DNA of 64,000 nt from Deltaproteobacteria bacterium (GTDB lineage: Bacteria; Desulfobacterota; Desulfobacteria; Desulfobacterales; GCA-2748835). Positions 13,329-37,224 of this stretch are shown piece after piece. The first letter of the stretch is position 1. Every line of letters starts with the position of its first letter. A program made the position numbers and the translations under genes. Under the pieces are notes generated by a model, which saw only the letters and a program-made list of their open reading frames with translations, did not search any database and was not told the origin of the DNA. The stretch spans positions 23,838 to 87,837 of the forward strand of contig PDTL01000014.1 in the NCBI GenBank assembly GCA_002748835.1. Direction: 5' to 3'.

Positions 13329-13344
13329 GTGCAAGGAGACAGAC

Positions 13345-18210: not shown

Positions 18211-19241
18211 TGGCCGTTGGGCGGTTGTCCGTTCTGGGTCTGCTGATCGGACTGCTGGCGTCTGATACGGCGGCCGGGTTCACCTGGCTGGGATATGAAA
18301 AAAACGCTGATTTCACTGCACCGGAATGTGTCCGGATTGATTACCGGATGCGCATCCGGGTTGAGGATGATGCTGATGCCGCGGCCCTTCGCCGGATGCC
18401 GCTTCCGCAAACGACGGGATACCGGAAAATCCTGGGGGCATTCGCACGGATTGATACCCGGCACACAGCGGACAGCGCAACGGTTGCAGACGGCTGCATT
18501 TGTATGACAACCGTCCGGCCCGGAGATGGGGTGGTTTACGGCTATACCCTTGTTCATGACGGCATTGGAAACGCGGGTGGTGCCGCAGACCGGCTGGTGA
18601 TTCCAGATCCCTCAGCCCCCTGCCGGGTGGTGTATACGGTGCAGTTCCCGTCCAGCGGTTTGTATCGATGGATCGAAGGCTCTGGCTGCAGCGCTGTGCA
18701 TACGGCGTCCGGAGATTGTTTCAGGTATGTGCGTGATGGGGGCGTTTGCCATCTTCCCGATCAGATTCGGGTGAGCTCCTGGGCATCCTGGGCCTGTGTG
18801 CGTAGGCAGTACGACGCCGCCTGGCCGGCAGACCCTCAGGGACTGATGGATCCTGCGGACCTGACCGGTGGTTCCCCTCCGGATCCGGAACGGCTCGCCT
18901 CCCAGCTTGCTGAACAGGTCGTCTATGAAATGGAACCGCGTGCCGGTCATCTGCATCAGCCGTCGAAACCGGCATCGGTGATGTCCCGGGGCCGGGGTGA
19001 CTGCAAGGATCTGGCCCTGCTGGTGGTGACGCTTTTAAGAAAATACGGCTTTAAGGCCGGATGTGTGCTGGCCGGAAACGACGGGTGCAGCACATTTCCA
19101 GACCCGCTGGTCTTCACCCATGCCTATGCGGCGGTGAAAACCGAAGGCGGTAAGTGCCTGTACCTGGATCCGGCCCGGAAATTGACATCGGTGGTGCCGG
19201 CAGAAGATTGGCTCCTGCCGCTTTCCCTGTGTGAGTATTGA
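18210..19241 (+). CDS. exported transglutaminase-like (Cys-His-Asp) domain protein
   Basis: The ATG at 18210 overlaps the tadB-like stop (TGATG) and is an internal Met of track ORF 18129. Signal-like N-terminus LSVLGLLIGLLASDTAAG. TGase-core pattern GRGDCKDLALLVVTLLRKYGFKA...FTHAYAAV...LYLDPA. Confidence 0.75.
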   Translation: MAVGRLSVLGLLIGLLASDTAAGFTWLGYEKNADFTAPECVRIDYRMRIRVEDDADAAALRRMPLPQTTGYRKILGAFARIDTRHTADSATVADGCICMTTVRPGDGVVYGYTLVHDGIGNAGGAADRLVIPDPSAPCRVVYTVQFPSSGLYRWIEGSGCSAVHTASGDCFRYVRDGGVCHLPDQIRVSSWASWACVRRQYDAAWPADPQGLMDPADLTGGSPPDPERLASQLAEQVVYEMEPRAGHLHQPSKPASVMSRGRGDCKDLALLVVTLLRKYGFKAGCVLAGNDGCSTFPDPLVFTHAYAAVKTEGGKCLYLDPARKLTSVVPAEDWLLPLSLCEY

Positions 19242-19273
19242 CCTTTGCTTACAGTTTATAGAGGAGTTACGCC

Positions 19274-22200
19274 ATGAAAACGCCAAAATGGTTGCATCTG
19301 GTGATTCTTGCCTTTTTTCTGTTCCAGACCCTGATGCCTGTACCGGCAATGGCCGCAAAAAAGTCAACGGAAAAAATCGTTCCGATTCCAGGTGGTTATG
19401 CCGTTGATTCGGCCGATTTTATGGATGGGATTGCATCGCTTGACCGGGACTTGATCCGAAGTTACTTGGCTTATATGGGCAAATCTGCGACCATTCGAGC
19501 CGGGATGCGCAAGCGGAGTGAGGAATTCAGTGAACTGCTGAAAGCCGGCGCCCCGCTGGTGCGTGTTCAGATCGCCGATCCCACCTATGCCTCACTTGCC
19601 AACGAAGCAGAACGCAGTCTTGCCTATGTGACCGATGCGCTTTCCCGTACAGAGCAAGATCATAACAAAAAAACAGAATCCCTTGAAAAGACGGTTCGCG
19701 CAGGTTTTTCCGGCAGCCGGCTTCCGGACGGCCTTCTCGGTAAGACCCGGCTGCTTGAAGACCTGTACCGACAGCAGGACACCCTGGTTCAGATGAAACT
19801 GAACATGGCGGCTAAGCTAACCGGTATCTATGACAATATTCGGGTTAACGGGAAGGTGTTTCCCCAGCCAGAAGCCGTGAAAACATGGCTGGCAGCCGTG
19901 GATGGCCTGATGATCGCCCTGGAGGCTCAGACCCTGGTTTTGAAACAGGAGACCGAGGCGTTTGAAGCGGAAAAACGGACGTATAACGAGGCTGCGCTGG
20001 CAGCGCTTTCCCTGGAACGGGAACGGACCCTTGCGCTGAAAGCGGAAAATGATCGCCAGATTGATTATCTGACATCCGTGGGGACGCCTTATACACGGGA
20101 TCAGGCTGCGCTGCTTTCCGGTGTTCAGGATGTCCTGGACTACCGGCTCAATGAAATAGAGGCACGGGAACGGGCGGTTGAGCAAGACGTATCCGGAACC
20201 GGTAACTTCCTGTATCTGCCCGAATCCCTCGATGCGGTCGCCGCCATCCGGCCGCTTGTGAACCGCTACCGGAACATCGCTTCGGGCTGGATTGAACTGA
20301 CCGGCGCCCGGATAGGTGACGCAGACCACCTGATCCGGGCCTTGGATGATGCCATTGCCGCCATGACCGATGAGTCGTCTCAGTTGTCCGCATGGCTGTC
20401 TACGGCATCCGGTGTTTACAGCCCTGAAGGAACGGCTGCCCTGAAACAGGGGCTTGAGACACGGTATGACGGGTTTCTGAATATCCTTATTGCAAACAGG
20501 GATGCTCTTAAGAAAGCCCGGAACGACCTCTCCAGCATCTCCTTTTCAGATCCGGATGCGCTCACCCGTGATGCGGCAGCCACCGCCCGCATTGTCCGGT
20601 TTAATCAGCTTGTTGAAGCAGCGATTGGCGGACTGGACGGGATCTCCGTGACGAGTTTTGTCATGGATGTGCGAACCACAGCCGACCTGGAATCTCTTGC
20701 AACAGCCATCGGACCTGGATCCCTTGAATCGGTGTTTAACGCCAGCGAGCAGCGTGCCCGCGCGATTTCGCAAGTAGCTGATCTGCTTGAGGCGCTTGAA
20801 ACGGGACTTACGGCTGATCGAGATCAGTCCGCACTGCTTCGAATGCTGGCATTGGATCTTGTATCTGAAGGAAAACGGATCTATCAGCAGAAATCCAGAG
20901 CCGTATCCCGGGCGTTGACGCACGCACCTTCGGGCAGCGGGAAGGTATATCGGTCATTTCTGGAAGGGACACAGCTTCATCTGTCCGGCCGATATGAAGA
21001 ATTGAAGGCCTATGATGCGGCCATACCTGCAGGTTTTTCTTCCCGCCTGACCGAGGCTGCCTGCCCCCTTTGCCTGGATACCCGGGTCTGGAATGACACG
21101 GCGCAGATCGGGACCCTGTTTCAGGAGCGGTTTGAAGAACTGGCAAAACTCGAACAGCTGGATCCGCTGCTGTCAGCCGCCTATCTCACTGAAACCGATC
21201 CCTACCGGGTGGCGGAACATCTGTTTGCGCTGTCTCTTGCCGTTGACAGCCCGCCTCTCATGACCCTGAAAGAAGACAGTATCGATGTCACCTTCGTGAT
21301 CGGTGATAAAGCAACTGCTATTTTAAACGTGGGAAAGACAAACAGCGTATCCGCCTCACGCCTGATCCCGGAAACAGATCCCTGGATTCAGGGGCCGTAT
21401 ATCGGATGGTCCTTTAACCCCAAAACCGCTTGGGGCTCGGAGAAAAAAAGGGTTGCTGACACGGGGGCAATGATCATTTCCGCCAGGAAAGGCTTTGCCA
21501 ACACCGCCAGTGAGATCCTTGAAGGTGCAAAGGTGATCGGCGGAAAGATCACGACGCGGCTTTCCGAATACCGGAAAAAAGCCGGTGAAGTGATTGAAAA
21601 AACAGGTGCAGGTCTTGTTAAGGCAAAAAATGCACTCTGGGATACAACCCAAAAGGCGGCAGCTGTCAGCTGGGATGTGATTAAAAATATCGGTACTCAG
21701 GCGTTTCTGGATGAACATGTGGATGCCCATGGAAATAAAACCTACAGTGTGGGGTGGATGAAACTGGTCGGTTACGGCCTTGGCGGCGCAGCCTGTGTTG
21801 TCACGGGTGGTTTGGCCTGCATTCCGCTGGCCGTTTCCGCGGGTGCTGCCGGGCTCAAGGGCGTCTTTGACACCATGGCCATGAAAAAATATAATATTAT
21901 TTCCGAAAACACCCAGTGGTATCTGAATACAGCAGTCGATATCGCGGATTTGATCGGCAGCGGTATTTTGAACATCAAAAGTGCCGGCAAGGCCTGGCAG
22001 GGTATGAGCAAAATGCATAAAGCCCTTGTGTTTTTAGGTCTGGACCCTGATAACGTCAAACATTTGGGGGAGCTGTTTTCCGTAAAAGCCTATAAAGGAC
22101 TGAAAACGATCTGGAAATATGTGGCAGAGGGCCGGTTTTCAGCCATCCGTTCTGTTTTGGAAAAATTCCGAATCCCTGTAAAAATGGCAGAGCGGTTTCT

Positions 22201-22918
22201 TAACGGTCTGAATGCGGGGAAGACCCTGTATGATGCGTACATGATGGTGACGGGACTTCCTGCGAAGCTTGCTGATTACTACACGTATGTGATCTCCCCC
22301 GCCGGATCCTTGCTCATGAATGGCGTCAAAAAATTGGCCTCCCTGGACCCGATGACCCTGCTGAAATACGGGCTGTTTTTAGGTCCGGGCTGGTCACCGC
22401 TTACGAACGGGACACCCCTGAATTGGTCCATGACCCCGCAGGATGCCCTGGATGCCTTGGGCCGGGCGATCGGATGGGCATACACGTCGGGTGATGCTGC
22501 TGTCAAATGGATTGCCGACCTGGTGATGGTCCATGAAGCACTGGCCTTAAATCCCATGTCGCCTGCAGCTCAGTCCTATCTGGAAAGCCTGATCGCGGCG
22601 TTTATCTCCCGATCCACGCTGGATACACTGAGCGGACTTCCGGATACGGTGTTCAGCGGCCTTTCTGCCGCAGATGATTATATCGACCTGTTGAGCCGAT
22701 ATGGGGAATTTATGCTAGCGGCGCCCTGGGCGATTGCCGATGATTACGCTGGAGGGGATGTTGTCCATTCAGAGACGGGCACGCGCCTGACCGGTGGTTC
22801 GGCAACCGATACCGGGACCGCCGCGAAGACAGCGACGCCTCCGAAACATCGCGCACCCACGACCTACAGGAAACCTGTACCCGTTAAACCGGGTAAGATG
22901 CGAAAACTGCCGTGGTAA
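19274..22918 (+). CDS. large (1214 aa) secreted/membrane-associated protein of unknown function
   Basis: Signal peptide LHLVILAFFLFQTLMPVPAMAAKK. The first ~700 aa are Leu/Ala/Glu/Arg-rich and look helical. A Gly/Ala-rich hydrophobic hairpin VGYGLGGAACVVTGGLACIPLAVSAGAAGL spans about 21765-21860. The C-terminal tail is basic and Pro/Lys-rich. I see no catalytic motif. Confidence 0.7.
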   Translation: MKTPKWLHLVILAFFLFQTLMPVPAMAAKKSTEKIVPIPGGYAVDSADFMDGIASLDRDLIRSYLAYMGKSATIRAGMRKRSEEFSELLKAGAPLVRVQIADPTYASLANEAERSLAYVTDALSRTEQDHNKKTESLEKTVRAGFSGSRLPDGLLGKTRLLEDLYRQQDTLVQMKLNMAAKLTGIYDNIRVNGKVFPQPEAVKTWLAAVDGLMIALEAQTLVLKQETEAFEAEKRTYNEAALAALSLERERTLALKAENDRQIDYLTSVGTPYTRDQAALLSGVQDVLDYRLNEIEARERAVEQDVSGTGNFLYLPESLDAVAAIRPLVNRYRNIASGWIELTGARIGDADHLIRALDDAIAAMTDESSQLSAWLSTASGVYSPEGTAALKQGLETRYDGFLNILIANRDALKKARNDLSSISFSDPDALTRDAAATARIVRFNQLVEAAIGGLDGISVTSFVMDVRTTADLESLATAIGPGSLESVFNASEQRARAISQVADLLEALETGLTADRDQSALLRMLALDLVSEGKRIYQQKSRAVSRALTHAPSGSGKVYRSFLEGTQLHLSGRYEELKAYDAAIPAGFSSRLTEAACPLCLDTRVWNDTAQIGTLFQERFEELAKLEQLDPLLSAAYLTETDPYRVAEHLFALSLAVDSPPLMTLKEDSIDVTFVIGDKATAILNVGKTNSVSASRLIPETDPWIQGPYIGWSFNPKTAWGSEKKRVADTGAMIISARKGFANTASEILEGAKVIGGKITTRLSEYRKKAGEVIEKTGAGLVKAKNALWDTTQKAAAVSWDVIKNIGTQAFLDEHVDAHGNKTYSVGWMKLVGYGLGGAACVVTGGLACIPLAVSAGAAGLKGVFDTMAMKKYNIISENTQWYLNTAVDIADLIGSGILNIKSAGKAWQGMSKMHKALVFLGLDPDNVKHLGELFSVKAYKGLKTIWKYVAEGRFSAIRSVLEKFRIPVKMAERFLNGLNAGKTLYDAYMMVTGLPAKLADYYTYVISPAGSLLMNGVKKLASLDPMTLLKYGLFLGPGWSPLTNGTPLNWSMTPQDALDALGRAIGWAYTSGDAAVKWIADLVMVHEALALNPMSPAAQSYLESLIAAFISRSTLDTLSGLPDTVFSGLSAADDYIDLLSRYGEFMLAAPWAIADDYAGGDVVHSETGTRLTGGSATDTGTAAKTATPPKHRAPTTYRKPVPVKPGKMRKLPW

Positions 22919-22941: not shown

Positions 22942-23466
22942 ATGACGGCAAAAAAAACGATGGTTCTGCTTTTGGGGATGCTGGTGTTGAACGCCTGCGT
23001 CCAGAATCGGCCCCGCCCGGCAGCAACGCAACCGCCAGCAAAAACAGGCGGAGAAACGGTTGCCATTAACCTGGATCATGCCTCGCTTCGTACGGAAATC
23101 ATAGGGGCAAACGGGTATGCCCTCGCACTTTTTTACAACAATCAGTACCGGCCCTCTGCTGAGCTCGAGGCGATTTTTGACGCGCTTTCAGTCAAATACA
23201 AAGACGCTGCCGTGTACGGAAAATTTTTCTGGTATCTGGATTGGAACGGGGAACAGTACGGACTGGACATGCTACCCACGGTCATTCTCTTTAACAATGG
23301 AGAAGAGATCGATCGGATCCGGGGAATGGACACGGACAAGAACCGGATCCAAAAGGACATGGATCTCTGGCTGAGGAAAAATGTCGTGAATCCGCAAGGG
23401 GACGGGTTCTCGGGTGCGTTCACCTATCGGTTCAACAATACCTATACCCTGTCGATTTCAAACTGA
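22942..23466 (+). CDS. thioredoxin-fold lipoprotein lacking the CxxC motif
   Basis: ATG at 22942 after AGGAGCC. Lipobox LVLNAC. The Trx-like layout is ALALFYNNQYRPSAELEAIFDAL...LPTVILFNNGEEIDRIRG, with NNQY where WCGPC would sit. Confidence 0.55.
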   Translation: MTAKKTMVLLLGMLVLNACVQNRPRPAATQPPAKTGGETVAINLDHASLRTEIIGANGYALALFYNNQYRPSAELEAIFDALSVKYKDAAVYGKFFWYLDWNGEQYGLDMLPTVILFNNGEEIDRIRGMDTDKNRIQKDMDLWLRKNVVNPQGDGFSGAFTYRFNNTYTLSISN

Positions 23467-23482: not shown

Positions 23483-25189
23483 ATGGCAACAGCCCGCGAC
23501 ATACTGAACGCTGACATCCGGCGAATTGCCGGAATGAACGGTATTGATCCCCTGCCGGAAGCCGGCAGCATCGAGGGGCTGTTGTCCGACCACCTGATCG
23601 AATCCGGGCGTGCAGCGGCAGATGCCGTGAATGTCATGCTGGAAGAGGCCACCGGCGTGCCGGCACTGGATCCGTCCCGCGTGTCGTTTTCCGATGCGTT
23701 CATCTCTCTGGCAACGGCCCTGATCCCGCGGGATTTGCTGGTGGCTCTTGGGGTTTTCCCGGTGCGGCTGAATAAACACCGGCTTCATCTGGTCATGGCG
23801 GTTCCCGGTGATTCAGAGGCGATACACCGGATTGAGGCGTGGACCGGTTCTCTCGTGGTCCCGTATGTCTGTCATTCACGGGGAATCATCAGTGCCATTG
23901 AGCGGATTCTGCCGGCAGCCGATGCAGTAGGAGAGATACCTGATGATCTGGACGCGCTGACCCTGGCGGCTGCCGGAACCGTTTCCGCAAAGGTGTCGGA
24001 CCAGGTGGAGACGCTGCGGGTGCTCACGGATGTGCCGCTGATCCGATTGGTGCAGGGGCTGTTAGCGGCTGCCGTTGAACGGGGTGCCAGTGATATCCAT
24101 ATTGAACCGGGACGGGAAGGGTGCCGTATCCGGATCCGGAAAGACGGTGTCCTTAACCGGTTCCATACCACGCCTGCCGTTTTGCGGGAGCCCATCATGA
24201 ACCGCCTGAAGCTGATGGCGGATATGGATGTGACAGACCGGCGAACGCCCCAGGACGGGAGTATTTCCTTTGGTGTGATTCCCGGCCGGGAGATCGACCT
24301 GAGGGTCTCTTCCCTGCCCACGGTGAACGGCGAAAAAGTGGTGCTCCGGATTCTGGACCGCGCGGATGTTGGGTTTGACCTGGAAGCTCTCGGCATGGAA
24401 GTTCCAGATCTGAAACGACTGAACCGCTCGATCTCTCAGCCCAGCGGCCTGGTCCTGGTGACAGGACCTACGGGCAGCGGGAAAACCACCACCTTGTATG
24501 CGATCCTGAATCATTTGAATCAAACGTCTGTGAATATCGTAACTGCGGAAGACCCTGTGGAATACCGCCTGGAGGGGGTTACCCAGGTGAACTGTTCCGA
24601 GGAAAGCGGGGTTTCCTTTGCCGATGCCCTGCGGTCGTTTCTCCGGCAGGATCCGGATATTATCATGGTGGGCGAAATCCGGGATCTGGAAACCGCCGAG
24701 TTTGCTGTCAAGGCCGCCATGACCGGCCATCTTGTTTTTTCGACCCTTCACACCATGGATGCGGTGGGAGCGGTTCAGCGCCTGGTCAATATGGGGGTAC
24801 CGCCGTACCTGATCGTCTCTGCCAAAGTTACGGTGGTGGCCCAACGGCTCCTTCGCCGGATCTGCGAAAACTGCCGGGTTGTGGATGAAGGCAGGGCAGA
24901 GGCGCTGAGCGTTCTTTCCATTGACAATCCAGCGTCGCTTTCCCTGTTTCGGGGCAGTGGATGCGATGACTGCAACGGAACCGGATACAGCGGGCGGCTC
25001 GGCGTCTATGAACTGTTTGCGGTGTCTGAAGCGGTGTCTGAATTGATTTTAAAGGATGCATCATCCGAAGCCTTGCGGAAAGTGGCGAAATCCGAAGGGA
25101 TGATTACCCTTCGGGAAGCCGCGCTTTTGAAACTCAAAGACGGCCGTACGACACTGGATGAAGTGCTACGGGTGACCATGGACATGTAG
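23483..25189 (+). CDS. GspE/PilB-family secretion ATPase with N-terminal T2SSE_N-like domain and tetracysteine motif
   Basis: ATG at 23483, an internal Met of track ORF 23414. Walker A VTGPTGSGKTTTLYA, Asp box TAEDPVEY, Walker B DPDIIMVGEIRD and His box TGHLVFSTLHT. Cys4 cluster CENC...CDDCNGTGYSGR. Confidence 0.9.
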   Translation: MATARDILNADIRRIAGMNGIDPLPEAGSIEGLLSDHLIESGRAAADAVNVMLEEATGVPALDPSRVSFSDAFISLATALIPRDLLVALGVFPVRLNKHRLHLVMAVPGDSEAIHRIEAWTGSLVVPYVCHSRGIISAIERILPAADAVGEIPDDLDALTLAAAGTVSAKVSDQVETLRVLTDVPLIRLVQGLLAAAVERGASDIHIEPGREGCRIRIRKDGVLNRFHTTPAVLREPIMNRLKLMADMDVTDRRTPQDGSISFGVIPGREIDLRVSSLPTVNGEKVVLRILDRADVGFDLEALGMEVPDLKRLNRSISQPSGLVLVTGPTGSGKTTTLYAILNHLNQTSVNIVTAEDPVEYRLEGVTQVNCSEESGVSFADALRSFLRQDPDIIMVGEIRDLETAEFAVKAAMTGHLVFSTLHTMDAVGAVQRLVNMGVPPYLIVSAKVTVVAQRLLRRICENCRVVDEGRAEALSVLSIDNPASLSLFRGSGCDDCNGTGYSGRLGVYELFAVSEAVSELILKDASSEALRKVAKSEGMITLREAALLKLKDGRTTLDEVLRVTMDM

Positions 25190-25208
25190 CGGGAAGGATA
25201 AACGAAAC

Positions 25209-26087
25209 GTGGAAAATCTCATTGTCTTTGGCGGCGTGGCAGCGTTTGCACTGGCTGTGGCCGTATGCGTCTATCATCTGTTTCCGTCCGGAACCGATGA
25301 GGCCATTCGCGGCCACATGGAGGGACCGGGGACTTCTGCAGGCGAGACGGCGCAGTTTGTGGCAAAGTTCCGTCTGTTTATCGAGTTGCTGAATCCGGTG
25401 GTCTCCATTCTGCCGATACAGGGATACCGAAAACGGATTCAAAAATACGCCATTTCTGCGGGCGTGGAACGGGAATTGAGCGCAGAAGATTTTATCGGTC
25501 TGCAGCTCACCATTACCCTGCTCCTTCCCTTGCTTCTGTACACAGCCTTTAAGAATCCCCTGTATTCCAGCATCGGGGCTGCTGTGGGCCTGATTTTTCC
25601 TTATTACTGGCTTTGGGACAAGATGAATACCCGCCAGAAAGCCATTCGTTCGACGATCCCCGACATTCTCGATACCCTGTCCCTTGCCGTGGCAGCCGGG
25701 CTTGATTTCAATGCCGCTATCCGGAAAATCTGCGACATTTATGCGGATGACGGCAACCCCTTTACCGAAGAGCTGCACCTGATGCTGCAGAACATTACCC
25801 TAGGACGCTCCCGGGAAGAGGCGCTCCGGGAAATGGCTGCTCGAATTGATATGACACCGGTCTACTCGTTTGTCTCCATTCTGATTCAGGCGGAAAAAAT
25901 GGGGAGCAGTATTGCCGATACCCTGAAGTCCCAGGCAGAGCGCTACCGTGAAGATCGGTTTCTGGAGGCGGAACGGGCCGGGGCGGTGGCAGCCCAGAAA
26001 CTTTTGGTGCCCATGATTATTTTTATTTTTCCCTTGCTGTTTGTTGTTATTTTTGGGCCGTATGTACTTCAGTTTATTTATAAGTAA
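25209..26087 (+). CDS. tadC: TadC-like platform protein (single T2SS-F domain)
   Basis: GTG start. T2SSF pattern DILDTLSLAVAAGLDFNAAIRKI...ALREMAARIDMTPVYSFVSILIQAEKMGSSIADTL. It has a C-terminal TM pair. Confidence 0.85.
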   Translation: MENLIVFGGVAAFALAVAVCVYHLFPSGTDEAIRGHMEGPGTSAGETAQFVAKFRLFIELLNPVVSILPIQGYRKRIQKYAISAGVERELSAEDFIGLQLTITLLLPLLLYTAFKNPLYSSIGAAVGLIFPYYWLWDKMNTRQKAIRSTIPDILDTLSLAVAAGLDFNAAIRKICDIYADDGNPFTEELHLMLQNITLGRSREEALREMAARIDMTPVYSFVSILIQAEKMGSSIADTLKSQAERYREDRFLEAERAGAVAAQKLLVPMIIFIFPLLFVVIFGPYVLQFIYK

Positions 26088-26122: not shown

Positions 26123-27511
26123 ATGCACTGGATACTTGAAATTACAGATGAAAATCAACCGGCCCAGGTGATGGAACTGGCCCCGGGTGAGTACCGCATC
26201 GGCCGGGCAACGGTGTCTGAGGTGCATCTGGATGACCGGTCCGTGTCCAAACTCCATGCAACTCTGCATGTTTCAACGGACGGCGTGCTCACGGTTCGGG
26301 ATGAGAAAAGCGCCAACGGCACCCGGGTGGATGGCAAACCGGTGATTGAAAAGCGACTTGCCGGCAGGGCGGAAATTCAGATCGCCGGATTCCGGTTGAT
26401 GCTGTCGCCGCCGGATATCGTTCTTGGAAAACCGAAAAAAGGCTTCCTGCCTGATGCACGGATGATCTTTATTGCGGTGATGGTGCTGTTTCTGTCTGTG
26501 GTCATACTGACGTCTCACCTGCAGATGAAAGGGACGCTCAAGGCGTTTCGCGAAAAAGGCTCGCTCTCCCACGGCGCCACGCTGGTGACCTGGCTGGGAG
26601 AAATGAACCGGTATTTTTTGTCCGGGAAGCATCATGACCAGCTGACCCTGGATCCGGTGGCATCGGAAACCGGTGTGTTGCAGGCCTTTATCGTGGGTAG
26701 TACCGGCCGAATCCTGAAACCCCTGGAGTATTTCGGCAATTATCTGGAGATGGCGGATCTCGACGCCATCCTGACATCGGGTACCCTGACCATTCGATCT
26801 CAGGGGCCAGATGAGACGCTGATGATCTATCCCATTATCGGTCCATCATATCCCTATGGCGCGGCGGTTATCCGTTTCCGGACCTCGGACTGGGGACGGG
26901 ATCTGCCGGCTCCGGGCAGTGGACAGTTGATGCTGTTTCTGATTTCAGGAGGGCTGATCAGTCTGGTGACGGGTCTCTGGCTGTATCGCCAATTGTTGTC
27001 TCCTGTGCGGCTGCTGACTGCAGATCTGGACCGCGCACTTACGGAAAACGACACCCGGCTCCAGACACCACCGCCCACAGACGACCATCTACCCCTCTGG
27101 GAAGCGGTCAGCCGTCTTCTGGTCAGAGTGGCCTATCAGAAAAAAACGGAATCCGCGATCCCTGCAGGTTCACACCGTCCAGCCGCGCCCCCACTATCTG
27201 CGCCTGAATGCCGTTTATCGACCCATCCCTACCCGGCCTGCCGTGTGGCAACAGACAGTTACCTAATCAAGGCGTGGAATCCGGCCTTTAAAGAACGATT
27301 TTCATCTGAAAAAGAACTGACAGCCGACACCCACCTTATTGAGGTGATTCAACACCCGGAGCTGGTCAATATGGCATTTGATCTGCTCCAGTCAGAAAAT
27401 CCAAAACCCGCAATCGCCGGCACCTGCAAGCTGAGCCTGTATCCGTCGGCAGATGATTCCGGCACGTCAGTGGTGCTCTCGTTTCAGGAGATAGAAGATG
27501 CAAACAGGTAA
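26123..27511 (+). CDS. FHA-domain membrane protein (FHA - TM - extracytoplasmic region - TM - C-terminal domain)
   Basis: FHA core YRIGRATVSEVHLDDRSVSKLHATL...RDEKSANGTRVDG. TM segments MIFIAVMVLFLSVVILT and LMLFLISGGLISLVTGLWLY. The 3' end overlaps the next gene by 14 nt. Confidence 0.8.
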   Translation: MHWILEITDENQPAQVMELAPGEYRIGRATVSEVHLDDRSVSKLHATLHVSTDGVLTVRDEKSANGTRVDGKPVIEKRLAGRAEIQIAGFRLMLSPPDIVLGKPKKGFLPDARMIFIAVMVLFLSVVILTSHLQMKGTLKAFREKGSLSHGATLVTWLGEMNRYFLSGKHHDQLTLDPVASETGVLQAFIVGSTGRILKPLEYFGNYLEMADLDAILTSGTLTIRSQGPDETLMIYPIIGPSYPYGAAVIRFRTSDWGRDLPAPGSGQLMLFLISGGLISLVTGLWLYRQLLSPVRLLTADLDRALTENDTRLQTPPPTDDHLPLWEAVSRLLVRVAYQKKTESAIPAGSHRPAAPPLSAPECRLSTHPYPACRVATDSYLIKAWNPAFKERFSSEKELTADTHLIEVIQHPELVNMAFDLLQSENPKPAIAGTCKLSLYPSADDSGTSVVLSFQEIEDANR

Positions 27512-28400
27512 TTCCGCCGCAGGCAAACATGCTTCAGTGGCGCTGGTGATGACCGCCGGTAGCGCCAAAGGGCGTTCCTTTGCGCTGAATGAAGGTGGGG
27601 TGTACCGGATTGGCCGGTCACCGGAATCTGAAATCGCCCTGGATCCCCAGGATAAAAGTGTGTCCCGGCTGCATGCGCGTGTGCAGGTGAAATCCGGGAG
27701 GATTTTGTTTGCAAACGCCAGCCAGACCAACCCGGCTGTGGTGAACGGCAAGCTTGCGCTGAAAACGCTGGAACTGAGAAACGGCGATACCCTTCGCATT
27801 GGCGCTTCCGTTTTTCAGCTTCACACCGCTCGCACGGCAGGAGGGCCAGATAAAAAAACAATAAAGACAGGTGAGGAAAAACGACCGGTGCTGCTCTACG
27901 CAGTGGCGGGCGTGGTTGTGCTGATTGCGGTGCTGGCCGGTGTCAAACGATTTATATCTGATCGTGGCGGCGGGAGTGGAGATGACACACTGACTATCAG
28001 CAGCAACGCGTCGGATCCGCTGCTTGAAGGTGACGGGCTTCCCATGGCTTCCCTTTCGAATGCGCCGGGAAAGGGCGGCAATACACAGGCGGATTCGCTG
28101 TTTCACCAGGGGCTTTTTTTCTATGACGCCGGAAAACTCAAAAATGCCATTGACCGTTTTGAGGCGGCGCTGAAGGCGCAGCCTGATCACACCCTTTCCG
28201 AGCAGTGGCTGATGAAGACAGAATCGGAGCTGGCTGCCAGTGTGGATGTGCATTATCAGAAAGCCCTGCAGCACATGAAGTATATGCGTTACGGTGAAGC
28301 TGTCACCGAGTTTACCATCGTGGTTCAGCTGTCCCAGGATCCGGCAGATGAAAAATTTATGAACGCAAAAGAACAGCTGCTCAAGTTGAAAGGAAAGTAG
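27498..28400 (+). CDS. FHA-domain membrane protein with C-terminal TPR-like region
   Basis: FHA core YRIGRSPESEIALDPQDKSVSRLHARV...ASQTNPAVVNG. TM VLLYAVAGVVVLIAVLAGV. TPR-like segment ADSLFHQGLFFYDAGKLKNAIDRFEAALKAQPDH. Confidence 0.8.
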   Translation: MQTGNSAAGKHASVALVMTAGSAKGRSFALNEGGVYRIGRSPESEIALDPQDKSVSRLHARVQVKSGRILFANASQTNPAVVNGKLALKTLELRNGDTLRIGASVFQLHTARTAGGPDKKTIKTGEEKRPVLLYAVAGVVVLIAVLAGVKRFISDRGGGSGDDTLTISSNASDPLLEGDGLPMASLSNAPGKGGNTQADSLFHQGLFFYDAGKLKNAIDRFEAALKAQPDHTLSEQWLMKTESELAASVDVHYQKALQHMKYMRYGEAVTEFTIVVQLSQDPADEKFMNAKEQLLKLKGK

Positions 28401-28404
28401 AGAG

Positions 28405-29901
28405 TTGATCACGCTTTCAATATCGTTTGCAGATGGCAGTCAGGAAACACGGGAAGCGCTGCCGGAAAACACGGTGATGATCGGTCGGGCCGATGACTGT
28501 GATGTTCAGCTGGCCGGAGGCCGGGTGTCTCGGAATCATGCCCGGATTTACAACGAAGACGGTCGATGGATGGTTGAGGATCTCAAATCGACGAACGGGC
28601 TTTCCGTCAATGATATTCAATCGACCCGATATGCACTCAATAACGGGGACGTGATCCGCATCGCGGAGAACCGGATCCGGGTGACCCTGCCTGTGGAAAC
28701 CGGCGGCGCAGAAGATAGCGGTGTTGATCCGGATGCCACCTGTATTGAACCGGTCATGGGAGACCCGGAACCGGATGCCACCTTTGTGGTGAGCCGTGAG
28801 GCGATGATGGGGTCTGTTACCGGAAAGGGCGCTGCCACAGGCAACGTGGCCGCCTTTGTTCGGGAAAAACCGATTCTGGCACTGGTTGGCGCATTGCTTT
28901 TGGTGATCCTTATCAGCATAGTCGTGTTGCTCAGCGGAAATGAAAACCCTGCACCGGAGACACCCAAATTGGCAGTTGTGCCTGAGGATGCGGACACCGC
29001 CAAGGCTGCGTTGGAGCAGAAACGAAAAATCGGGGCCTATCTTCAGCGAGGGGAAATGCTGCTTGCTGCCGGTGAAGTGGAAAATGCCCTGATCCGGTTT
29101 GACGCCATCCTGGAGCTGGATCCGGGACATCGGGCGGCAGCGACACTTGCCGCCCGGTGCCGGCGTGAGATCGATGCAAGAGACGCAGCGCGCAGGCAGG
29201 CGGAAGAAAAGGCGTCCCTGGCAGCGGAAAAGCTGAATAAGGGTCTGGAACTGGCCCGGTATTATCACAGTCACCGGGAATGGGATCAGTGCATTGCCAT
29301 GCTCGATTCCTTGGCTGGCCAGATTGCAGAAGGGTCTGCTGAGGCCAAAGAAGTGTCGGCCTTGCGCCAGACCGCATCTGATGCGCTGAAAAAGGCAGCC
29401 GCTGCCCGGAAAAAACAATCTGAAGTGACGGGCGCCATCCAGCGCCAGGTGAACAAAGGATCCGGTTACTATAAAAAACGGAACTATTACAAGGCGCTTC
29501 TTGCCTGGCGTAAAGGGGTGAAGATTTCTCCGAACCATCCCCTTGCGCTTGAAATAAAAGATCAGATGATTCCAAAAGCCGTTTCGGCCCTGAATCAACG
29601 GGTGGCTGGTGATTACCAGCGGGCGGTTCAGTATAAGAACCGCGGGGATGACGGAGAAGCTCTGATCTATTTTGACCGTGTGGTCAATCGGTGGCCTGAA
29701 TACAAGGATGCGGCACGTCAGCGCAACGCAATCGAAAAATGGCTGGAAGATGAGGCGAAGCGTCTGTACCAGGAAGGGAAAGTTTACGAAGGCATCGGAC
29801 AGATGGACAAAGCAATTCGCAAATGGGAGGCTGTGCTGGAAAAGATGCCGCTGAAATCGAATGCCTATTATAAAAAAGCCGCTGCCAAGCTGGGGCGCTA
29901 A
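28405..29901 (+). CDS. FHA-domain membrane protein with extended TPR region
   Basis: TTG start. FHA core MIGRADDCDVQLAGGRVSRNHARI...DLKSTNGLSVND. TM ILALVGALLLVILISIVVLL. Several TPR-like repeats extend to the C-terminus. Confidence 0.8.
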   Translation: MITLSISFADGSQETREALPENTVMIGRADDCDVQLAGGRVSRNHARIYNEDGRWMVEDLKSTNGLSVNDIQSTRYALNNGDVIRIAENRIRVTLPVETGGAEDSGVDPDATCIEPVMGDPEPDATFVVSREAMMGSVTGKGAATGNVAAFVREKPILALVGALLLVILISIVVLLSGNENPAPETPKLAVVPEDADTAKAALEQKRKIGAYLQRGEMLLAAGEVENALIRFDAILELDPGHRAAATLAARCRREIDARDAARRQAEEKASLAAEKLNKGLELARYYHSHREWDQCIAMLDSLAGQIAEGSAEAKEVSALRQTASDALKKAAAARKKQSEVTGAIQRQVNKGSGYYKKRNYYKALLAWRKGVKISPNHPLALEIKDQMIPKAVSALNQRVAGDYQRAVQYKNRGDDGEALIYFDRVVNRWPEYKDAARQRNAIEKWLEDEAKRLYQEGKVYEGIGQMDKAIRKWEAVLEKMPLKSNAYYKKAAAKLGR

Positions 29902-29908
29902 CGATGGG

Positions 29909-31663
29909 ATGTCAGGGGGGCAGATGACAACCGATACCGTGTCCGTATTATCCAATCTTATCGGTGACAAATATCATGTGGGAGAGGTGATCGCCCGGGG
30001 CGGGATGGGCGAAGTTTACACCGGCACCCATGTGGCGTTGAACCGGAAGGTGGCCATCAAGATTATCCGTACCCATCTTTCCTCAGACGCCCAGATCCGG
30101 GAGCGGTTTCTCCGGGAAGCCCGGCTCACGGCCCAGCTGACCCATCCGAATATCATCGAAATCTTTGATTTTGGCGGCAATGAGGCCTTTGACTACATCA
30201 TCATGCCCTATATTGACGGGATCACCCTGAAAGATCGTCTGACTGGAACCGGACCCGTGCCGGCGGACGAAACCCTGAAACTGGTCCGGCCCGTGGTCGA
30301 TGCCCTGGCCCTGGCCCATGACAGGGGGGTGGTGCATCGGGACGTGAAACCGAGCAATATCCTGGTAACCTCAGGCGGGATTCCCATTCTGACGGATTTT
30401 GGCATCTCAAAGAATCTGAACGATTCTGACATGACCCTGTCGGACACCATGCTGGGCGCTCCCCGATATATGAGCCCCGAACAGATTCGCGGCGAGCGGG
30501 TGGACGGGCGCAGTGATCTTTATGCCATCGGGATCATTCTGTATGAAATGCTTTGCGGATCTCATCCGTTCAAGGGGGATCAGGTGGCTGCCATCTGCTA
30601 TCAGCAGATGCATGAGGTGCCGTCGCCTCCGGATACGGTGAACCCCGCGATACCGGAGTGGTTATCCGGACTTGTCATGCAGCTGGTGGAAAAAAAACCG
30701 GAAGACCGGTTTCTGGATGCCCATGCACTGCTCAAGGCCATGGATGCAAAAGGCGATGTCGCAGCGATCCGTTCTCTCGGGTCAGCGCAAGACATCATGG
30801 CCGGTGACAGGACGATCGTGGGGGACGCAACCCGTGTCGGAGATGCGACGGTGGTCGGCCCTGAACCGGCAGCCGTTTCCCTGAGCGATGCCACACAGAT
30901 TGGTGAAGCGACCGAAATCGGTGGTCCGGTTGTCCATGCGTCGGCAGGCATACCGGCGGCCGGACCCAACCGGAAACGCTGGTATGCCATTGCCGGTGCC
31001 GTGATGGGACTGCTAATCATCATCGGTATCGCCGGAAAGCTGCTCAGGTCTCCTGATGCAGAAAAATCTGTGGAAACGCCCATAAAAGCTGAAGCACCGG
31101 TATCATCCGAGGTCGACACAGGCGGTGTGGTATCGCCTGGCTCCGAAGATCGTGCGGAATTGGAACCGCTGACTGAACCGGTGACCCGGAAAGATCTGAT
31201 TCAGGCCATTCAACAGCTGCCTGTGACAGGCGCACAGGCCAGCGGCATTCATATCGACTTGAGCCAGCCATCCTTCCGGGTGGGCGACCCCATTGCCTAC
31301 CGCCTGAAATTTGACAGGCCCGGTTACGGGGCCGCAGTGCTCCTGACGACGTCCGGGGAGCTCATCTGTCTGTACCCGAGCGGCAGCCAGTCAGGCGCTT
31401 TGGTGGAACCCGACCGTGTGTACCCGGTTCCCCATACATCCCTGGGCATTGATCTTGAAGTGGTGGGGCCGGAAGGCAAAGAACGGGTTGTTGCGTTTCA
31501 CAGCACTGTGCCGGTGATCGAACCGGCTGTGAGTGCGGACGCTCCCTTTACAGAGATCACGGATGCAACCCCGAAGCTGGTCAAGGCCTTGCATGATGCA
31601 GTGAAGAAATCCGGGACTGGCATGAGCATTGCGGTCACAGACTATTTTGTCTTTACCCCCTGA
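29909..31663 (+). CDS. Hanks-type Ser/Thr protein kinase with TM and DUF4384-like ectodomain
   Basis: Kinase motifs GRGGMGEVY, VAIK, HRDVKPSNIL, DFGISK and APRYMSPEQ. TM WYAIAGAVMGLLIIIGIAG. The C-terminus FRVGDPIAYRLKFDRPGYGAAVLLTTSGELICLYPS...GKERVVAFHS resembles DUF4384. The start is ATG 29909 or 29924; the track start at 29861 overlaps the upstream gene. Confidence 0.9.
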   Translation: MSGGQMTTDTVSVLSNLIGDKYHVGEVIARGGMGEVYTGTHVALNRKVAIKIIRTHLSSDAQIRERFLREARLTAQLTHPNIIEIFDFGGNEAFDYIIMPYIDGITLKDRLTGTGPVPADETLKLVRPVVDALALAHDRGVVHRDVKPSNILVTSGGIPILTDFGISKNLNDSDMTLSDTMLGAPRYMSPEQIRGERVDGRSDLYAIGIILYEMLCGSHPFKGDQVAAICYQQMHEVPSPPDTVNPAIPEWLSGLVMQLVEKKPEDRFLDAHALLKAMDAKGDVAAIRSLGSAQDIMAGDRTIVGDATRVGDATVVGPEPAAVSLSDATQIGEATEIGGPVVHASAGIPAAGPNRKRWYAIAGAVMGLLIIIGIAGKLLRSPDAEKSVETPIKAEAPVSSEVDTGGVVSPGSEDRAELEPLTEPVTRKDLIQAIQQLPVTGAQASGIHIDLSQPSFRVGDPIAYRLKFDRPGYGAAVLLTTSGELICLYPSGSQSGALVEPDRVYPVPHTSLGIDLEVVGPEGKERVVAFHSTVPVIEPAVSADAPFTEITDATPKLVKALHDAVKKSGTGMSIAVTDYFVFTP

Positions 31664-31738
31664 TCGTCCGGATTTTAATGAATTTTCTGTGAAATGTGCT
31701 ATACTGTTTTATCACTCATGAACAGGGAGAAACCAATC

Positions 31739-33820: not shown

Positions 33821-33870
33821 GCTTATCGACTGTTCATTGAAACATGGAAAGATGCGGAAAGGAGTGGCGC

Positions 33871-34584
33871 ATGCGCCTTGAGAAAAAAGAAGAAAGACTA
33901 AAACAGCGTCTCAGCTGGATGCTGTTGTTCCTTATTTTCGTGCTGACCACAGGATGCGTTGCCAGCAGTCAGCCGTCAGCACCGCCGCTGCCGCCGGCCA
34001 ATGATACGCAGGTGAATATGCGGGATCTTCCCTATCCGAACGGAAAACGGGCGCTTGTTGCCATTGCCGGTTTTGAGAACAAGAGTACCTATTCTGCTGA
34101 CCGACTCTGGGATACATCGTCCCGGCTTCTCGCCTCCGCATTGATACAGGCCAACTATTTCCGGGTGGTGGAATGGGAAAAAATGAAGCAGCTCTTTGAC
34201 TGGGACACACTCTCCAACGCCAGCCTTGTGAAATCGCCGGACGATCTGAAACGGGCTCAGCGGATTCTTTTGTGTGAATATTTTGTCACCGGCACCATCA
34301 CGTTCTTCAATATCAAGCAGCATGCCCAGGTGAGCGCCATGTCCAAATCCAAAGTACTGGATACCACGGTCCGTGTCGATTTGCTGCTGCAGGACGCACG
34401 CACCGGAGAATATCTGAGCGCATCCAACGGTGAGCACACGGTGCGCCAGTCGTACACAGCAGGCATGTCCGGCGGTCAGACCGGCAGCTGGGACAGCCAC
34501 TCCGGTGATGAAGCCCTGTCACAGGCCATTAACAAAGCCCTGTATAACCTGGTGTTGAATTTTCATTCCAGGCGACGTGGATAA
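33871..34584 (+). CDS. CsgG-family lipoprotein
   Basis: ATG at 33871 after AAGGAG. Lipobox VLTTGC. CsgG-like core VAIAGFENKSTYSADRLWDTSSRLLASALIQANYFRVVEWEKM...YFVTGTITFFN...VRVDLLLQDARTGEY. Confidence 0.75.
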   Translation: MRLEKKEERLKQRLSWMLLFLIFVLTTGCVASSQPSAPPLPPANDTQVNMRDLPYPNGKRALVAIAGFENKSTYSADRLWDTSSRLLASALIQANYFRVVEWEKMKQLFDWDTLSNASLVKSPDDLKRAQRILLCEYFVTGTITFFNIKQHAQVSAMSKSKVLDTTVRVDLLLQDARTGEYLSASNGEHTVRQSYTAGMSGGQTGSWDSHSGDEALSQAINKALYNLVLNFHSRRRG

Positions 34585-37195: not shown

Positions 37196-37224
37196 GCGTC
37201 TCTACTCCCTGAATAGACTTATAG

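What the first reader, a model, noticed from the sequence alone, without database searches (positions are those of the whole stretch)
23483..26087. Second, GspE/PilB-clade ATPase (Cys4 zinc-type motif, T2SSE_N-like N-domain) paired with a TadC-like platform inside a Tad locus
Seen: a 568-aa ATPase has all GspE/PilB boxes plus CENC...CDDC, which is distinct from the CpaF-type motor at 14823. A single-domain T2SS-F protein follows immediately. Established: Tad systems typically use a single bifunctional CpaF/TadA motor, whereas T4aP and T2SS use PilB/GspE-type motors. Inference: the machine may be a hybrid or dual-motor design, for example with separate extension and retraction or separate loading functions. 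Alternatively, modules from two systems may have merged.
Basis: partly seen in the sequence, partly recalled or inferred. Interest (0 to 1): 0.65.

Follow-up and report, generated by a model that had tools for sequence, protein, structure and literature searches.

The report
PilB-type second ATPase in Tad locus
A sulfate-reducer-type bacterium carries a Tad (tight-adherence) pilus gene cluster that, besides its normal CpaF motor, always includes a second, intact motor ATPase of the PilB type borrowed from a different pilus lineage; this is a conserved and apparently undescribed variant, and a natural test case for how Tad pili are driven.

Summary
Window 23483-25189 encodes a 568-aa PilB/GspE-clade ATPase with an MshEN/T2SSE_N N-domain, all catalytic boxes and CX2C-X29-CX2C. 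A 292-aa single-domain T2SSF protein follows at 25209-26087. Both lie inside one co-directional Tad-like locus (about 10.4-34.6 kb) that has its own CpaF-type motor, here a TadZ::CpaF fusion at 14823-16886.

The interpretation needs one correction. The T2SSF protein is not a private platform for the second ATPase. By reciprocal BLAST it is the orthologue of TadC, and the gene at 16987 is the orthologue of TadB. Outgroup Tad/Kil-like loci have the same TadC, one of them with the 3xFHA module, and no PilB-like gene. Only the ATPase, with a thioredoxin-like lipoprotein upstream, was added.

The addition is not a chance merger. The ATPase belongs to a 55-member subfamily (NJ bootstrap 76/100), and all 8 members examined sit in the same context, across Desulfovibrionales and Desulfobacterales-type genomes. 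Its N-domain is subfamily-specific and lacks the conserved N-terminal motif of ordinary PilB.

Best reading (inferred): a second motor acting on the shared TadB/TadC platform. I found no published description. I rate it a new variant of a known kind, with moderate to high interest.

The parts
10371..10637 (+). Flp-type pilin (leader ...KEEKG|ATAVEYALL)
   Evidence: Pfam Flp_Fap. It is the only prepilin-type motif in the window.
10638..12416 (+). TadE-like (10638-11081), TadG/Tad-like (11081-11965) and a second small TadE/F-like ORF (12036-12416, no Pfam hit)
   Evidence: Pfam TadE and Tad PF13400. The same order is seen in L082, L092 and L093.
12459..13328 (+). RcpC/CpaB
   Evidence: Pfam RcpC 92 bits, plus SAF.
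13306..14775 (+). Secretin (RcpA/CpaC type)
   Evidence: Pfam Secretin, T2SS-T3SS_pil_N, BON.
14823..16886 (+). TadZ(CpaE, ParA/MinD-like)::CpaF fusion, the resident Tad motor ATPase
   Evidence: Pfam CbiA/AAA_31 at residues 5-213 and T2SSE at 337-612. NCBIfam TadA-family 326 bits. PDB best hit is Caulobacter CpaF at 377 bits. Catalytic boxes are intact. T-Q replaces Caulobacter P386-R387.
16987..18210 (+). TadB orthologue with an inserted TPR region
   Evidence: Pfam TPR and T2SSF. Reciprocal BLAST gives 121/99 bits against canonical TadB and 35/27 against TadC.
18129..22918 (+). Variable region between tadB and the Trx-like gene: transglutaminase-like protein (ORF 18129-19241, true start probably later) and a 1214-aa signal-peptide protein with no Pfam domain (19274-22918)
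   Evidence: Pfam Transglut_core and no hit. The content of this region differs between related loci.
22942..23466 (+). Thioredoxin-fold-like lipoprotein without CXXC, always directly upstream of the PilB-like gene
   Evidence: Weak Pfam Thioredoxin hit. Alignment of 8 orthologues shows a lipobox Cys and the motifs LPT and G.E.DR..G. Not detected by tblastn in outgroup loci.
23483..25189 (+). PilB/GspE-clade ATPase: diverged N1 (MshEN-like), N2, CTD and Cys4 Zn motif. This is the finding.
25209..26087 (+). TadC orthologue (single T2SSF domain)
26123..29901 (+). Three FHA-domain proteins, each with a hydrophobic (putative membrane) stretch after the FHA domain (26123-27511, 27498-28400, 28405-29901; the last two also have TPR)
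   Evidence: Pfam FHA and Yop-YscD_cpl. Hydrophobic stretches read from the translations; no topology prediction was run. Conserved after tadC in all related loci and in outgroup L089.
29861..34584 (+). Ser/Thr kinase with DUF4384 (29861-31663), caspase-like Peptidase_C14 (31694-33820), CsgG-like (33844-34584)
   Evidence: Pfam. The same genes occur in L081 and L083. PP2C and/or Peptidase_C11 occur in other loci instead.

Best explanation
Shown: the gene at 23483-25189 encodes a catalytically intact PilB-class hexameric motor ATPase. It belongs to a small, distinct subfamily found, in every case examined, inside one type of Tad-like (T4cP, Bdellovibrio/Kil-related) locus of Desulfobacterota. 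In that locus it is always flanked by a thioredoxin-like lipoprotein gene upstream and tadC plus three FHA genes downstream. It always co-occurs with a TadZ::CpaF motor and a TPR-TadB. The neighbouring T2SSF protein is TadC, partner of TadB, and not a PilC/GspF-type platform.

Inferred: a duplicated T4aP-type PilB was recruited into the Tad machine. Its N1 domain was remodelled: it lost the conserved N-terminal motif of ordinary PilB and gained subfamily-specific motifs. It now docks on the single TadB/TadC platform as a second motor, alternating with TadZ::CpaF much as PilB and PilT alternate on PilC. Every characterised member of the PilB/GspE clade is an assembly motor and this one keeps the N1-N2 face, so the most likely assignment is that the PilB-like ATPase drives filament extension. 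TadZ::CpaF would then provide positioning plus retraction or a second mode. Activity is probably gated by the locus-encoded Ser/Thr kinase or PP2C and the FHA proteins.
For: Family placement. Intact Walker A, Asp box, catalytic Glu, His box, Cys4 and both Arg fingers (R274/R289, equivalent to PilB_Gm R271/R286 in PMC5424180) are invariant across the alignment.

Distinct clade of 55 sequences, bootstrap 76/100, with 19 diagnostic positions. It is separate from ordinary PilB, which sits in pilB-pilT-pilC operons or loci without Tad genes.

Synteny holds in 8 of 8 members, including the cultured Desulfonatronovibrio magnus and Desulfolutivibrio sulfoxidireducens. Identity levels are similar for PilB-like, TadC, TadB and TadZ::CpaF across loci, which fits one co-evolving system.

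TadB and TadC orthology. Outgroup loci keep TadC (one with the FHA module) and lack the PilB-like and Trx-like genes.

The window contains no pilC, pilT, T4a prepilin or prepilin peptidase. Gene spacing of 16-35 nt suggests co-transcription.

Pro386 of the CpaF retraction motif is lost throughout this clade, and in the window R387 is also lost (with preprint 10.64898/2026.02.24.707734).
Against: There is no direct evidence that the PilB-like ATPase contacts TadB/TadC. Those platforms are of the archaeal-derived Tad lineage, for which no PilB-type partner is known. The direction of any division of labour is undetermined. CpaF is itself an extension-type catalyst, and most clade members keep R387, so the sequence data do not show that CpaF has lost either function. 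Sister systems (Bdellovibrio TadZA, Kil) work without a PilB-like ATPase. The tree is a distance tree on 121 sequences with only 76% support, and no curated reference set was included. Whether these genomes also have a separate T4aP could not be checked.
Confidence: 0.5

Rival explanations
1. One reading: the PilB-like ATPase and the adjacent T2SSF protein form their own ATPase-platform module (a second machine or sub-machine), while TadZ::CpaF works with the TPR-TadB.
For: The two genes are adjacent (19-nt gap) in every locus examined. tadB and tadC are separated by 2-6 genes here, unlike canonical cpaF-tadB-tadC loci.
Against: The T2SSF protein is a TadC orthologue and the other is a TadB orthologue. 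Established knowledge holds that Tad platforms are TadB/TadC hetero-assemblies. The locus has only one of each. TadC directly followed by FHA genes exists without any PilB-like gene in outgroup L089, and TadC directly follows TadB in the Kil-like L091. The adjacency therefore reflects insertion upstream of tadC, not a co-inherited pair.
Confidence: 0.1
2. The PilB-like ATPase is part of the system but is not a filament motor on the platform. It might energise export or loading of the variable cargo-like proteins encoded between tadB and the Trx-like gene in a T2SS-like manner. Or it might act as an ATP-dependent scaffold or switch bound to the FHA proteins.
For: Variable large secreted or unknown proteins and a transglutaminase-like protein lie just upstream. 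The N1 domain is strongly remodelled and rare: only 12 cluster representatives at E<=1e-10 among 1.84 billion. That suggests a new binding partner. The FHA, kinase and phosphatase genes are conserved neighbours.
Against: All motor-specific residues, including the arginine fingers, the pore-loop Asp (D401, invariant) and the neighbouring pore-loop Glu (E403, majority residue in the subfamily), are retained. The FHA module predates the ATPase. The cargo-like genes are not conserved, whereas the ATPase is.
Confidence: 0.22
3. The ATPase serves a T4aP or T2SS encoded elsewhere in the genome and is merely co-located or co-regulated with the Tad locus.
For: Sequence and fold are closest to Geobacter T4aP PilB. 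The rest of the genome could not be inspected.
Against: Strict synteny holds across distantly related Desulfobacterota (8 of 8). It forms a separate clade from operon-encoded PilB. The N-terminal regulatory domain has diverged. The gene is tightly packed in the operon between Tad genes.
Confidence: 0.1
4. The arrangement is a chance juxtaposition, a recent merger of two systems, or a decaying gene.
For: None beyond the unusual combination itself.
Against: The ORF is intact and all catalytic motifs are conserved. The arrangement is conserved at 44-52% protein identity across orders.
Confidence: 0.02

Closest known systems
T4aP assembly ATPase PilB (e.g. Geobacter metallireducens/sulfurreducens PilB, PDB 5TSG/5TSH/5ZFR)
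   Same: N1(T2SSE_N)-N2-CTD architecture, Cys4 Zn motif, Walker A/B, Asp and His boxes, both Arg fingers. Core identity is 49-50% and TM 0.94.
   Different: It scores below the NCBIfam equivalog cut-off (565 vs 675.65 bits). There are no pilT, pilC or pilMNOPQ neighbours. The N-terminal 150 residues are subfamily-specific and lack the motif conserved in ordinary PilB. There are 19 diagnostic substitutions, e.g. C371, N436 and P440, and the Arg of 'PQDGR' is usually Ser (>=50% of the subfamily, including the window). It is embedded in a Tad locus.
Canonical Tad/Flp (T4cP) system with single bifunctional CpaF/TadA (Caulobacter, Aggregatibacter, Pseudomonas)
   Same: Flp pilin, TadE/G-like minor pilins, RcpC/CpaB, secretin, TadZ/CpaE, CpaF, TadB and TadC are all present.
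   Different: There is an additional PilB-class ATPase. TadZ is fused to CpaF. TadB carries TPR. tadB and tadC are separated. FHA, kinase and protease genes are present. No prepilin peptidase is in the window.
Bdellovibrio bacteriovorus Tad (TadZA fusion, FHA/TPR neighbours; bioRxiv 10.64898/2026.07.08.737194) and Myxococcus Kil system (PMC8460266)
   Same: The TadZ-TadA fusion architecture is as described for Bdellovibrio. FHA-domain proteins are associated with the Tad core, as in Kil. The nearest TadC outgroup hits that carry a source name are Bdellovibrionota.
   Different: Those systems are described with CpaF-type ATPases only. Kil is described as having a 'single ATPase', and Bdellovibrio has extra tadA paralogues. 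Neither paper mentions PilB or GspE. The present carriers are sulfate-reducer lineages that are not known to be predators.
T2SS ATPase GspE
   Same: Same clade and same Zn motif. GspE N1E is also a T2SSE_N-type domain.
   Different: It scores lower than PilB (515 bits, cut-off 630.25). There are no gspC, F, L or M genes and no pseudopilins.

Membership tests
PilB/GspE clade of PilT-like secretion ATPases | T2SSE ATPase core with Walker A, Asp box, atypical Walker B with catalytic Glu, His box and two Arg fingers | tested here: met
   Pfam T2SSE E=1.2e-126. K334, E360, E398, H416/H423 and R274/R289 are invariant. Mapping onto PilB_Gm R271/R286 uses.
PilB/GspE clade of PilT-like secretion ATPases | Tetracysteine Zn motif (present in PilB/GspE, absent in PilT/PilU and FlaI; PMC5424180) | tested here: met
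   C461, C464, C494 and C497 are invariant, with spacing CX2C-X29-CX2C.
PilB/GspE clade of PilT-like secretion ATPases | N-terminal T2SSE_N/MshEN domain preceding N2 and CTD | tested here: met
   Pfam MshEN 40.4 bits at residues 58-146. The AF2 model shows a folded N-domain with pLDDT mostly above 85.
T4aP PilB (NCBIfam TIGR02538 equivalog) | Score at or above the curated cut-off (675.65 bits) | tested here: not met
   565.1 bits.
T4aP PilB (NCBIfam TIGR02538 equivalog) | Genomic association with pilC/pilT/pilMNOPQ and T4a pilins | tested here: not met
   None is present in the 64-kb window or in related loci. An ordinary PilB control (L085) does show pilB-pilT-pilC.
T2SS GspE (TIGR02533 equivalog) | Score at or above the cut-off (630.25 bits) and gsp gene context | tested here: not met
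   515 bits. No gsp genes are present in the locus.
CpaF/TadA family | Sequence or fold membership in the CpaF/FlaI/VirB11-like branch | tested here: not met
   TIGR03819 scores 49.6 bits against a cut-off of 373. No CpaF appears in the Foldseek top 50. The locus's true CpaF is at 14823-16886.
MshE/PilB-type c-di-GMP-binding MshEN | Conserved N-terminal Leu/Gly-rich MshEN motif pair (motif definition recalled from the literature, not re-derived here) | tested here: inconclusive
   The consensus of 65 ordinary PilBs shows a conserved motif in this region (GG.Lg.nLvK.GaisE...). The 55-member subfamily does not conserve it and has different conserved residues. Binding itself was not tested.
TadC (Tad inner-membrane platform subunit), for 25209-26087 | Single T2SSF domain and reciprocal best similarity to the second platform gene of canonical cpaF-tadB-tadC loci | tested here: met
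   101/111 bits against TadC of Paraburkholderia/Microvirga, 39/34 against their TadB, and 17 bits or no hit against PilC halves. JGI names homologues 'tight adherence protein C'.
Tad/T4cP system (for the whole locus) | Flp pilin, TadE/F/G-like, RcpC, secretin, TadZ, TadA/CpaF, TadB, TadC | tested here: met
Tad/T4cP system (for the whole locus) | Dedicated prepilin peptidase TadV/CpaA in the locus | tested here: not met
   tblastn with a TadV from L089 found no significant match in the window (best E=0.54, 19 residues). It may be encoded elsewhere, as reported for Bdellovibrio.

The most novel reading that the evidence does not exclude
These loci encode a natural dual-motor Tad machine. A PilB-lineage (bacterial T4aP/T2SS-type) assembly ATPase and a TadZ-tethered CpaF alternately engage one archaeal-lineage TadB/TadC platform. 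This would be the first case of a motor from one type IV filament lineage adapted to the platform of another. It would also be an evolutionary alternative to the 'single invertible motor' solution proposed for Caulobacter CpaF.
Probability: 0.35. Interest if true: 0.8.

Novelty: new variant of a known kind. Interest (0 to 1): 0.6.

Why it matters
How one CpaF drives both extension and retraction of Tad pili is an active question (Sci Adv 2019, PMC6920026; Nat Commun 2024/2025, PMC11300603 and PMC12019362; inversion model, bioRxiv 10.64898/2026.02.24.707734). A clade in which evolution added a dedicated PilB-class motor to an otherwise complete Tad machine gives a comparative handle on it. In that clade TadZ is fused to CpaF and Pro386 of the proposed retraction motif is lost. 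One can ask which function CpaF gave up, and how a PilB-type hexamer recognises a TadB/TadC platform. Two carriers (Desulfonatronovibrio magnus and Desulfolutivibrio sulfoxidireducens) are cultured, so the question can be tested. The finding also shows that annotation pipelines mislabel this protein: the sources name its homologues GspE, PilB or TadA.

Tried and rejected
(1) The genome-contig scan with the ATPase returned only ordinary PilB loci at 38-46% full-length identity with no Tad-system neighbours beyond an occasional weak secretin, CpaF or kinase match. The degenerate patterns came from generic motifs, so this capped scan was effectively lost for context.

(2) The homologue search with the Trx-like lipoprotein found only itself. 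The word index is too coarse for orthologues at 26-39% identity. I aligned orthologues taken from the loci instead. Its structure could not be predicted with that alignment because locus-derived sequences are not accepted.

(3) Chance merger or pseudogene: rejected on synteny and motif conservation.

(4) Private-platform reading: rejected by the reciprocal BLAST of the two T2SSF proteins and the outgroup contexts.

(5) c-di-GMP control via an MshEN motif: the motif region of ordinary PilB is not conserved in the subfamily. This is not pursued further.

(6) Test of whether the resident CpaF is 'extension-only' under the criteria of the 2026 inversion preprint: inconclusive. The window has T-Q at P386-R387, but five sister loci keep the Arg and lose only the Pro.

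(7) N-domain search of 1.84 billion representatives: it showed the domain is rare and divergent but gave no new architecture or context.

(8) Literature searches found no description of a PilB-class ATPase inside a Tad locus. Absence from this library is not proof of absence.
Full report
**1. What is there**

The + strand from about 10.4 to 34.6 kb is one tightly packed, co-directional gene array. Pfam and NCBIfam identify these genes:
- Flp pilin (10371-10637)
- TadE-like and TadG-like minor pilins (10638-12416)
- RcpC/CpaB (12459-13328)
- Secretin (13306-14775)
- A 687-aa fusion of a ParA/MinD-type TadZ/CpaE domain to a CpaF/TadA ATPase (14823-16886; TIGR03819 326 bits; best PDB hit Caulobacter CpaF at 377 bits)
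- A T2SSF protein with an inserted TPR region (16987-18210)
- A transglutaminase-like protein (ORF 18129-19241)
- A 1214-aa protein with no recognisable domain (19274-22918)
- A thioredoxin-like lipoprotein (22942-23466)
- The ATPase of the finding (23483-25189)
- A 292-aa single-domain T2SSF protein (25209-26087)
- Three FHA-domain proteins (26123-29901)
- A Ser/Thr kinase, a caspase-like peptidase and a CsgG-like protein (29861-34584)

The contig is a 169.9-kb MAG contig labelled Deltaproteobacteria. The protein is PIE71408.1, annotated 'GspE'.

**2.

- The ATG at 23483 has an AAGGA site 7 nt upstream and gives the family-typical 568 aa.
- Pfam finds T2SSE (E=1.2e-126) and MshEN/T2SSE_N (residues 58-146).
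- NCBIfam ranks PilB (565 bits) > GspE (515) >> ComGA (245) > PilT (195) >> FlaI (76) > TadA-family (50).
- The best solved relatives are the Geobacter PilB entries, aligned over residues 34-566.
- An AF2 model built on a 53-sequence alignment has pLDDT 91.4. Its core superposes on Geobacter PilB at TM 0.94, about 2 A and 49-50% identity. Thermus PilF and Vibrio GspE follow. PilT scores far lower, and no CpaF is in the top 50.
- The CENC...CDDC motif has the canonical CX2C-X29-CX2C spacing.
- Walker A (K334), the Asp box, the catalytic Glu (E398) and the His box are invariant. So are the two arginine fingers, R274/R289. These correspond to R271/R286 of G. metallireducens PilB, mapped and PMC5424180.
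- It is therefore a bona fide, presumably active PilB/GspE-clade motor, clearly distinct from the CpaF-type motor at 14823.

**3. The platform protein is TadC, not a private partner**

- tblastn of the two T2SSF proteins against plasmids hit canonical cpaF-tadB-tadC loci.
- In a reciprocal BLASTP matrix, the 16987 protein matches TadB (121/99 bits) rather than TadC (35/27).
- The 25209 protein matches TadC (101/111 bits) rather than TadB (39/34).
- Neither resembles either half of a PilC (25 bits or less across the set; 17 bits or no hit for the two window proteins).
- A homologue search with the 25209 protein gave 77 close relatives (231-345 bits; JGI calls several 'tight adherence protein C'). 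Scores then drop sharply to 175 bits or less, where the named hits are Bdellovibrionota TadC.
- Three outgroup contexts are informative:
  - L089 has TadC-DUF192-3xFHA-Flp-TadV-...-RcpC-secretin with no PilB-like gene.
  - L090 has an orphan PilZ-TadC.
  - L091 is Kil-like: RcpC-secretin-FHA::CpaF-TadB-TadC.
- No PilB-like or Trx-like gene was detected in any of the three.
- The tadC + 3xFHA arrangement is thus found without the PilB-like ATPase (L089), and the ATPase was inserted just upstream of tadC.
- The window has no PilC, PilT, prepilin peptidase or T4a/T2SS-type prepilin. The only prepilin motif is the Flp.

**4. The second ATPase is a conserved component, not an accident**

- Among the best 120 homologues, an NJ tree rooted with the window's CpaF domain recovers a 55-member clade (bootstrap 76/100). 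It is separate from ordinary PilBs.
- I looked up seven members at 44-52% identity. They include the cultured Desulfonatronovibrio magnus and Desulfolutivibrio sulfoxidireducens and MAGs of Desulfosalsimonadaceae/Desulfobacterales type.
- All seven, like the window, show: Trx-like lipoprotein -> PilB-like -> TadC -> FHA x3 -> kinase and/or PP2C.
- All loci with upstream coverage (the window plus six) also carry Flp..RcpC-secretin-TadZ::CpaF-TPR-TadB.
- An ordinary PilB just outside the clade (P0057) lies in a pilB-pilT-pilC operon.
- The 80 loci from the genome scan are ordinary PilB loci without the Tad context.
- PilB-like, TadC, TadB and TadZ::CpaF diverge to similar extents between loci.
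- The genes between tadB and the Trx-like gene vary between loci. Depending on the locus they include transglutaminase-like proteins, 1000-1270-aa proteins, or small unknown proteins.

**5. What distinguishes the subfamily**

- The catalytic core is conserved.
- The N-terminal ~150 residues do not keep the motif conserved in ordinary PilBs. They have their own conserved motifs (vN.vLeEvtG.qalDPt.vSF; VFP.kHE....HlVMa.P.D).
- phmmer with residues 1-180 against 1.84 billion representatives finds only 84 hits at E<=1e-3 and 12 at E<=1e-10.
- Nineteen positions are fixed differently in the two groups, e.g. C371 vs V, T367 vs N, N436 vs D, P440 vs E and A547 vs G.
- The Arg of 'PQDGR' in ordinary PilB is usually Ser (in at least half of the subfamily, including the window).
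- These changes are compatible with adaptation to new partners. That is inference.

**6. Mechanism**

Shown: there are two intact hexameric-motor genes, one TadB, one TadC, one Flp pilin set and one secretin, all conserved together.

Inferred (confidence about 0.5): the PilB-like ATPase is a second motor on the shared TadB/TadC platform, analogous to PilB and PilT sharing PilC.

- PilB/GspE-clade enzymes are assembly motors that engage the platform with their N-terminal face (PMC5424180; preprint 10.64898/2026.02.24.707734). I therefore favour an extension role for the PilB-like ATPase.
- TadZ::CpaF would provide localisation plus retraction or a second mode.
- The kinase/PP2C and FHA module would gate the system, as suggested for Kil.

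I tested one prediction. The inversion preprint reports that retraction by Caulobacter CpaF needs R387, and that 'single-orientation' orthologues degenerate at P386/R387. In the alignment:
- The window's CpaF has T-Q at these positions.
- The five sister loci have S/A/C-R, so Pro is lost and Arg is kept.
- Kil-like and Paraburkholderia CpaFs keep P-R.

This is suggestive of an altered C-terminal face in the clade but is inconclusive. It does not fix the direction of any division of labour.

The rivals are a private TadC-based module, a non-motor or cargo-loading role, service to a distant T4aP, and chance. They are weighed in the rival section.

**7. Comparison with known systems and novelty**

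- The locus is a Tad/T4cP system of the Bdellovibrio/Kil-related kind. The TadZA fusion with FHA/TPR neighbours has been described for Bdellovibrio, and FHA-rich Kil has been described for Myxococcus.
- Neither of those papers mentions PilB or GspE.
- The Denise et al. 2019 superfamily survey yielded no mention of a second or additional ATPase in Tad in my term search.
- Five other full-text searches also found no description of a PilB-class ATPase inside a Tad locus.
- The ATPase fails the PilB and GspE equivalog cut-offs and lacks their genomic context, so I do not file it as PilB or GspE proper. It is a new subfamily of the PilB/GspE clade, and the locus is a new variant of the Tad kind.
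Its 'dual-motor' idea survives, and its 'paired platform / merged modules' idea does not.

**8. Limits**

- The tree is a distance tree on the nearest 120 hits.
- No multimer modelling was possible.
- Whole genomes of carriers could not be inspected for other T4P or T2SS systems.
- Every functional statement about motor roles is inference.

Noticed in passing
window 14823-16886: The resident Tad motor is a TadZ(CpaE, ParA/MinD-like)::CpaF fusion of 687 aa. This is the same atypical architecture recently described as TadZA in Bdellovibrio. It is conserved in all six related loci with upstream coverage. The TadZ Walker A reads KGGTGRT (Arg instead of the second Lys).
   Followed up: partly
window 16560-16570 (CpaF residues aligned to Caulobacter P386-R387): The window's CpaF has Thr-Gln where Caulobacter CpaF has Pro386-Arg387. 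R387A gave non-retracting pili in the 2026 inversion preprint. Sister loci have S/A/C-Arg. Kil-like and Paraburkholderia CpaFs keep Pro-Arg.
   Followed up: partly
window 16987-18210: The TadB orthologue carries a ~100-residue TPR region between its first hydrophobic (putative transmembrane) stretch and the T2SSF domain. This is conserved in all related loci (405-410 aa).
   Followed up: no
window 21867-21895 (+): A perfect sigma-70 consensus (TTGACA-17-TATAAT, 12/12) lies inside the 1214-aa ORF, about 1 kb upstream of the Trx-like/PilB-like/tadC genes. It could be an internal promoter for the distal half of the locus. Only about 0.007 such matches would be expected by chance in 20 kb on both strands (my estimate). 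Conservation was not checked.
   Followed up: no
window 16923-16952 (+): The only intergenic terminator-like hairpin in the locus (7-bp stem followed by T8) lies between TadZ::CpaF and tadB. It may act as an attenuator or partial terminator.
   Followed up: no
window 22942-23466: Thioredoxin-fold-like lipoprotein (lipobox Cys19) lacking the CXXC active site. It is invariably the gene immediately upstream of the PilB-like ATPase in all 8 loci and was not detected by tblastn in outgroup Tad loci. Its function is unknown.
   Followed up: partly
window 18129-22918; L081-L084, L092, L093: The stretch between tadB and the Trx-like gene varies between loci. It holds a transglutaminase-like protein plus a 1000-1270-aa signal-peptide protein without Pfam domains in some loci, and only a ~300-aa unknown protein in others. 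It looks like a cargo or effector slot.
   Followed up: no
window 26123-34584 and 3144-3869: Three FHA-domain proteins are followed by a Ser/Thr kinase with DUF4384, a caspase-like Peptidase_C14 with Glucodextran_B-like repeats, and a CsgG-like protein. A GNA1162-like lipoprotein, which follows CsgG in L081 and L083, lies upstream at 3144-3869 in the window. Other loci have PP2C and/or Peptidase_C11 instead.
   Followed up: partly
window 5187-9970: A TolC-like OEP (5187-6599), an HlyD-type adaptor (6596-8059), an ABC ATPase (8059-8721) and a MacB-type permease (ORF 8558-9970, true start probably later) form a MacAB-TolC-like tripartite exporter directly upstream of the Flp gene. It is not conserved upstream in L082 or L093. 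An OEP gene does appear downstream in L086.
   Followed up: partly
whole window: No prepilin peptidase (TadV/CpaA/PilD) was detected anywhere in the 64 kb. Flp processing must depend on a gene elsewhere, as reported for Bdellovibrio, which uses PilD.
   Followed up: partly
window 34991-43370: Downstream of the locus lie a DUF3141 + TerB-domain protein (34991-37195, + strand) and, on the - strand, a fatty-acid/CoA metabolism cluster: enoyl-CoA hydratase, hexapeptide transferase, two CoA-transferase subunits, acyl-CoA dehydrogenase and 3-hydroxyacyl-CoA dehydrogenase. They appear unrelated to the finding.
   Followed up: no
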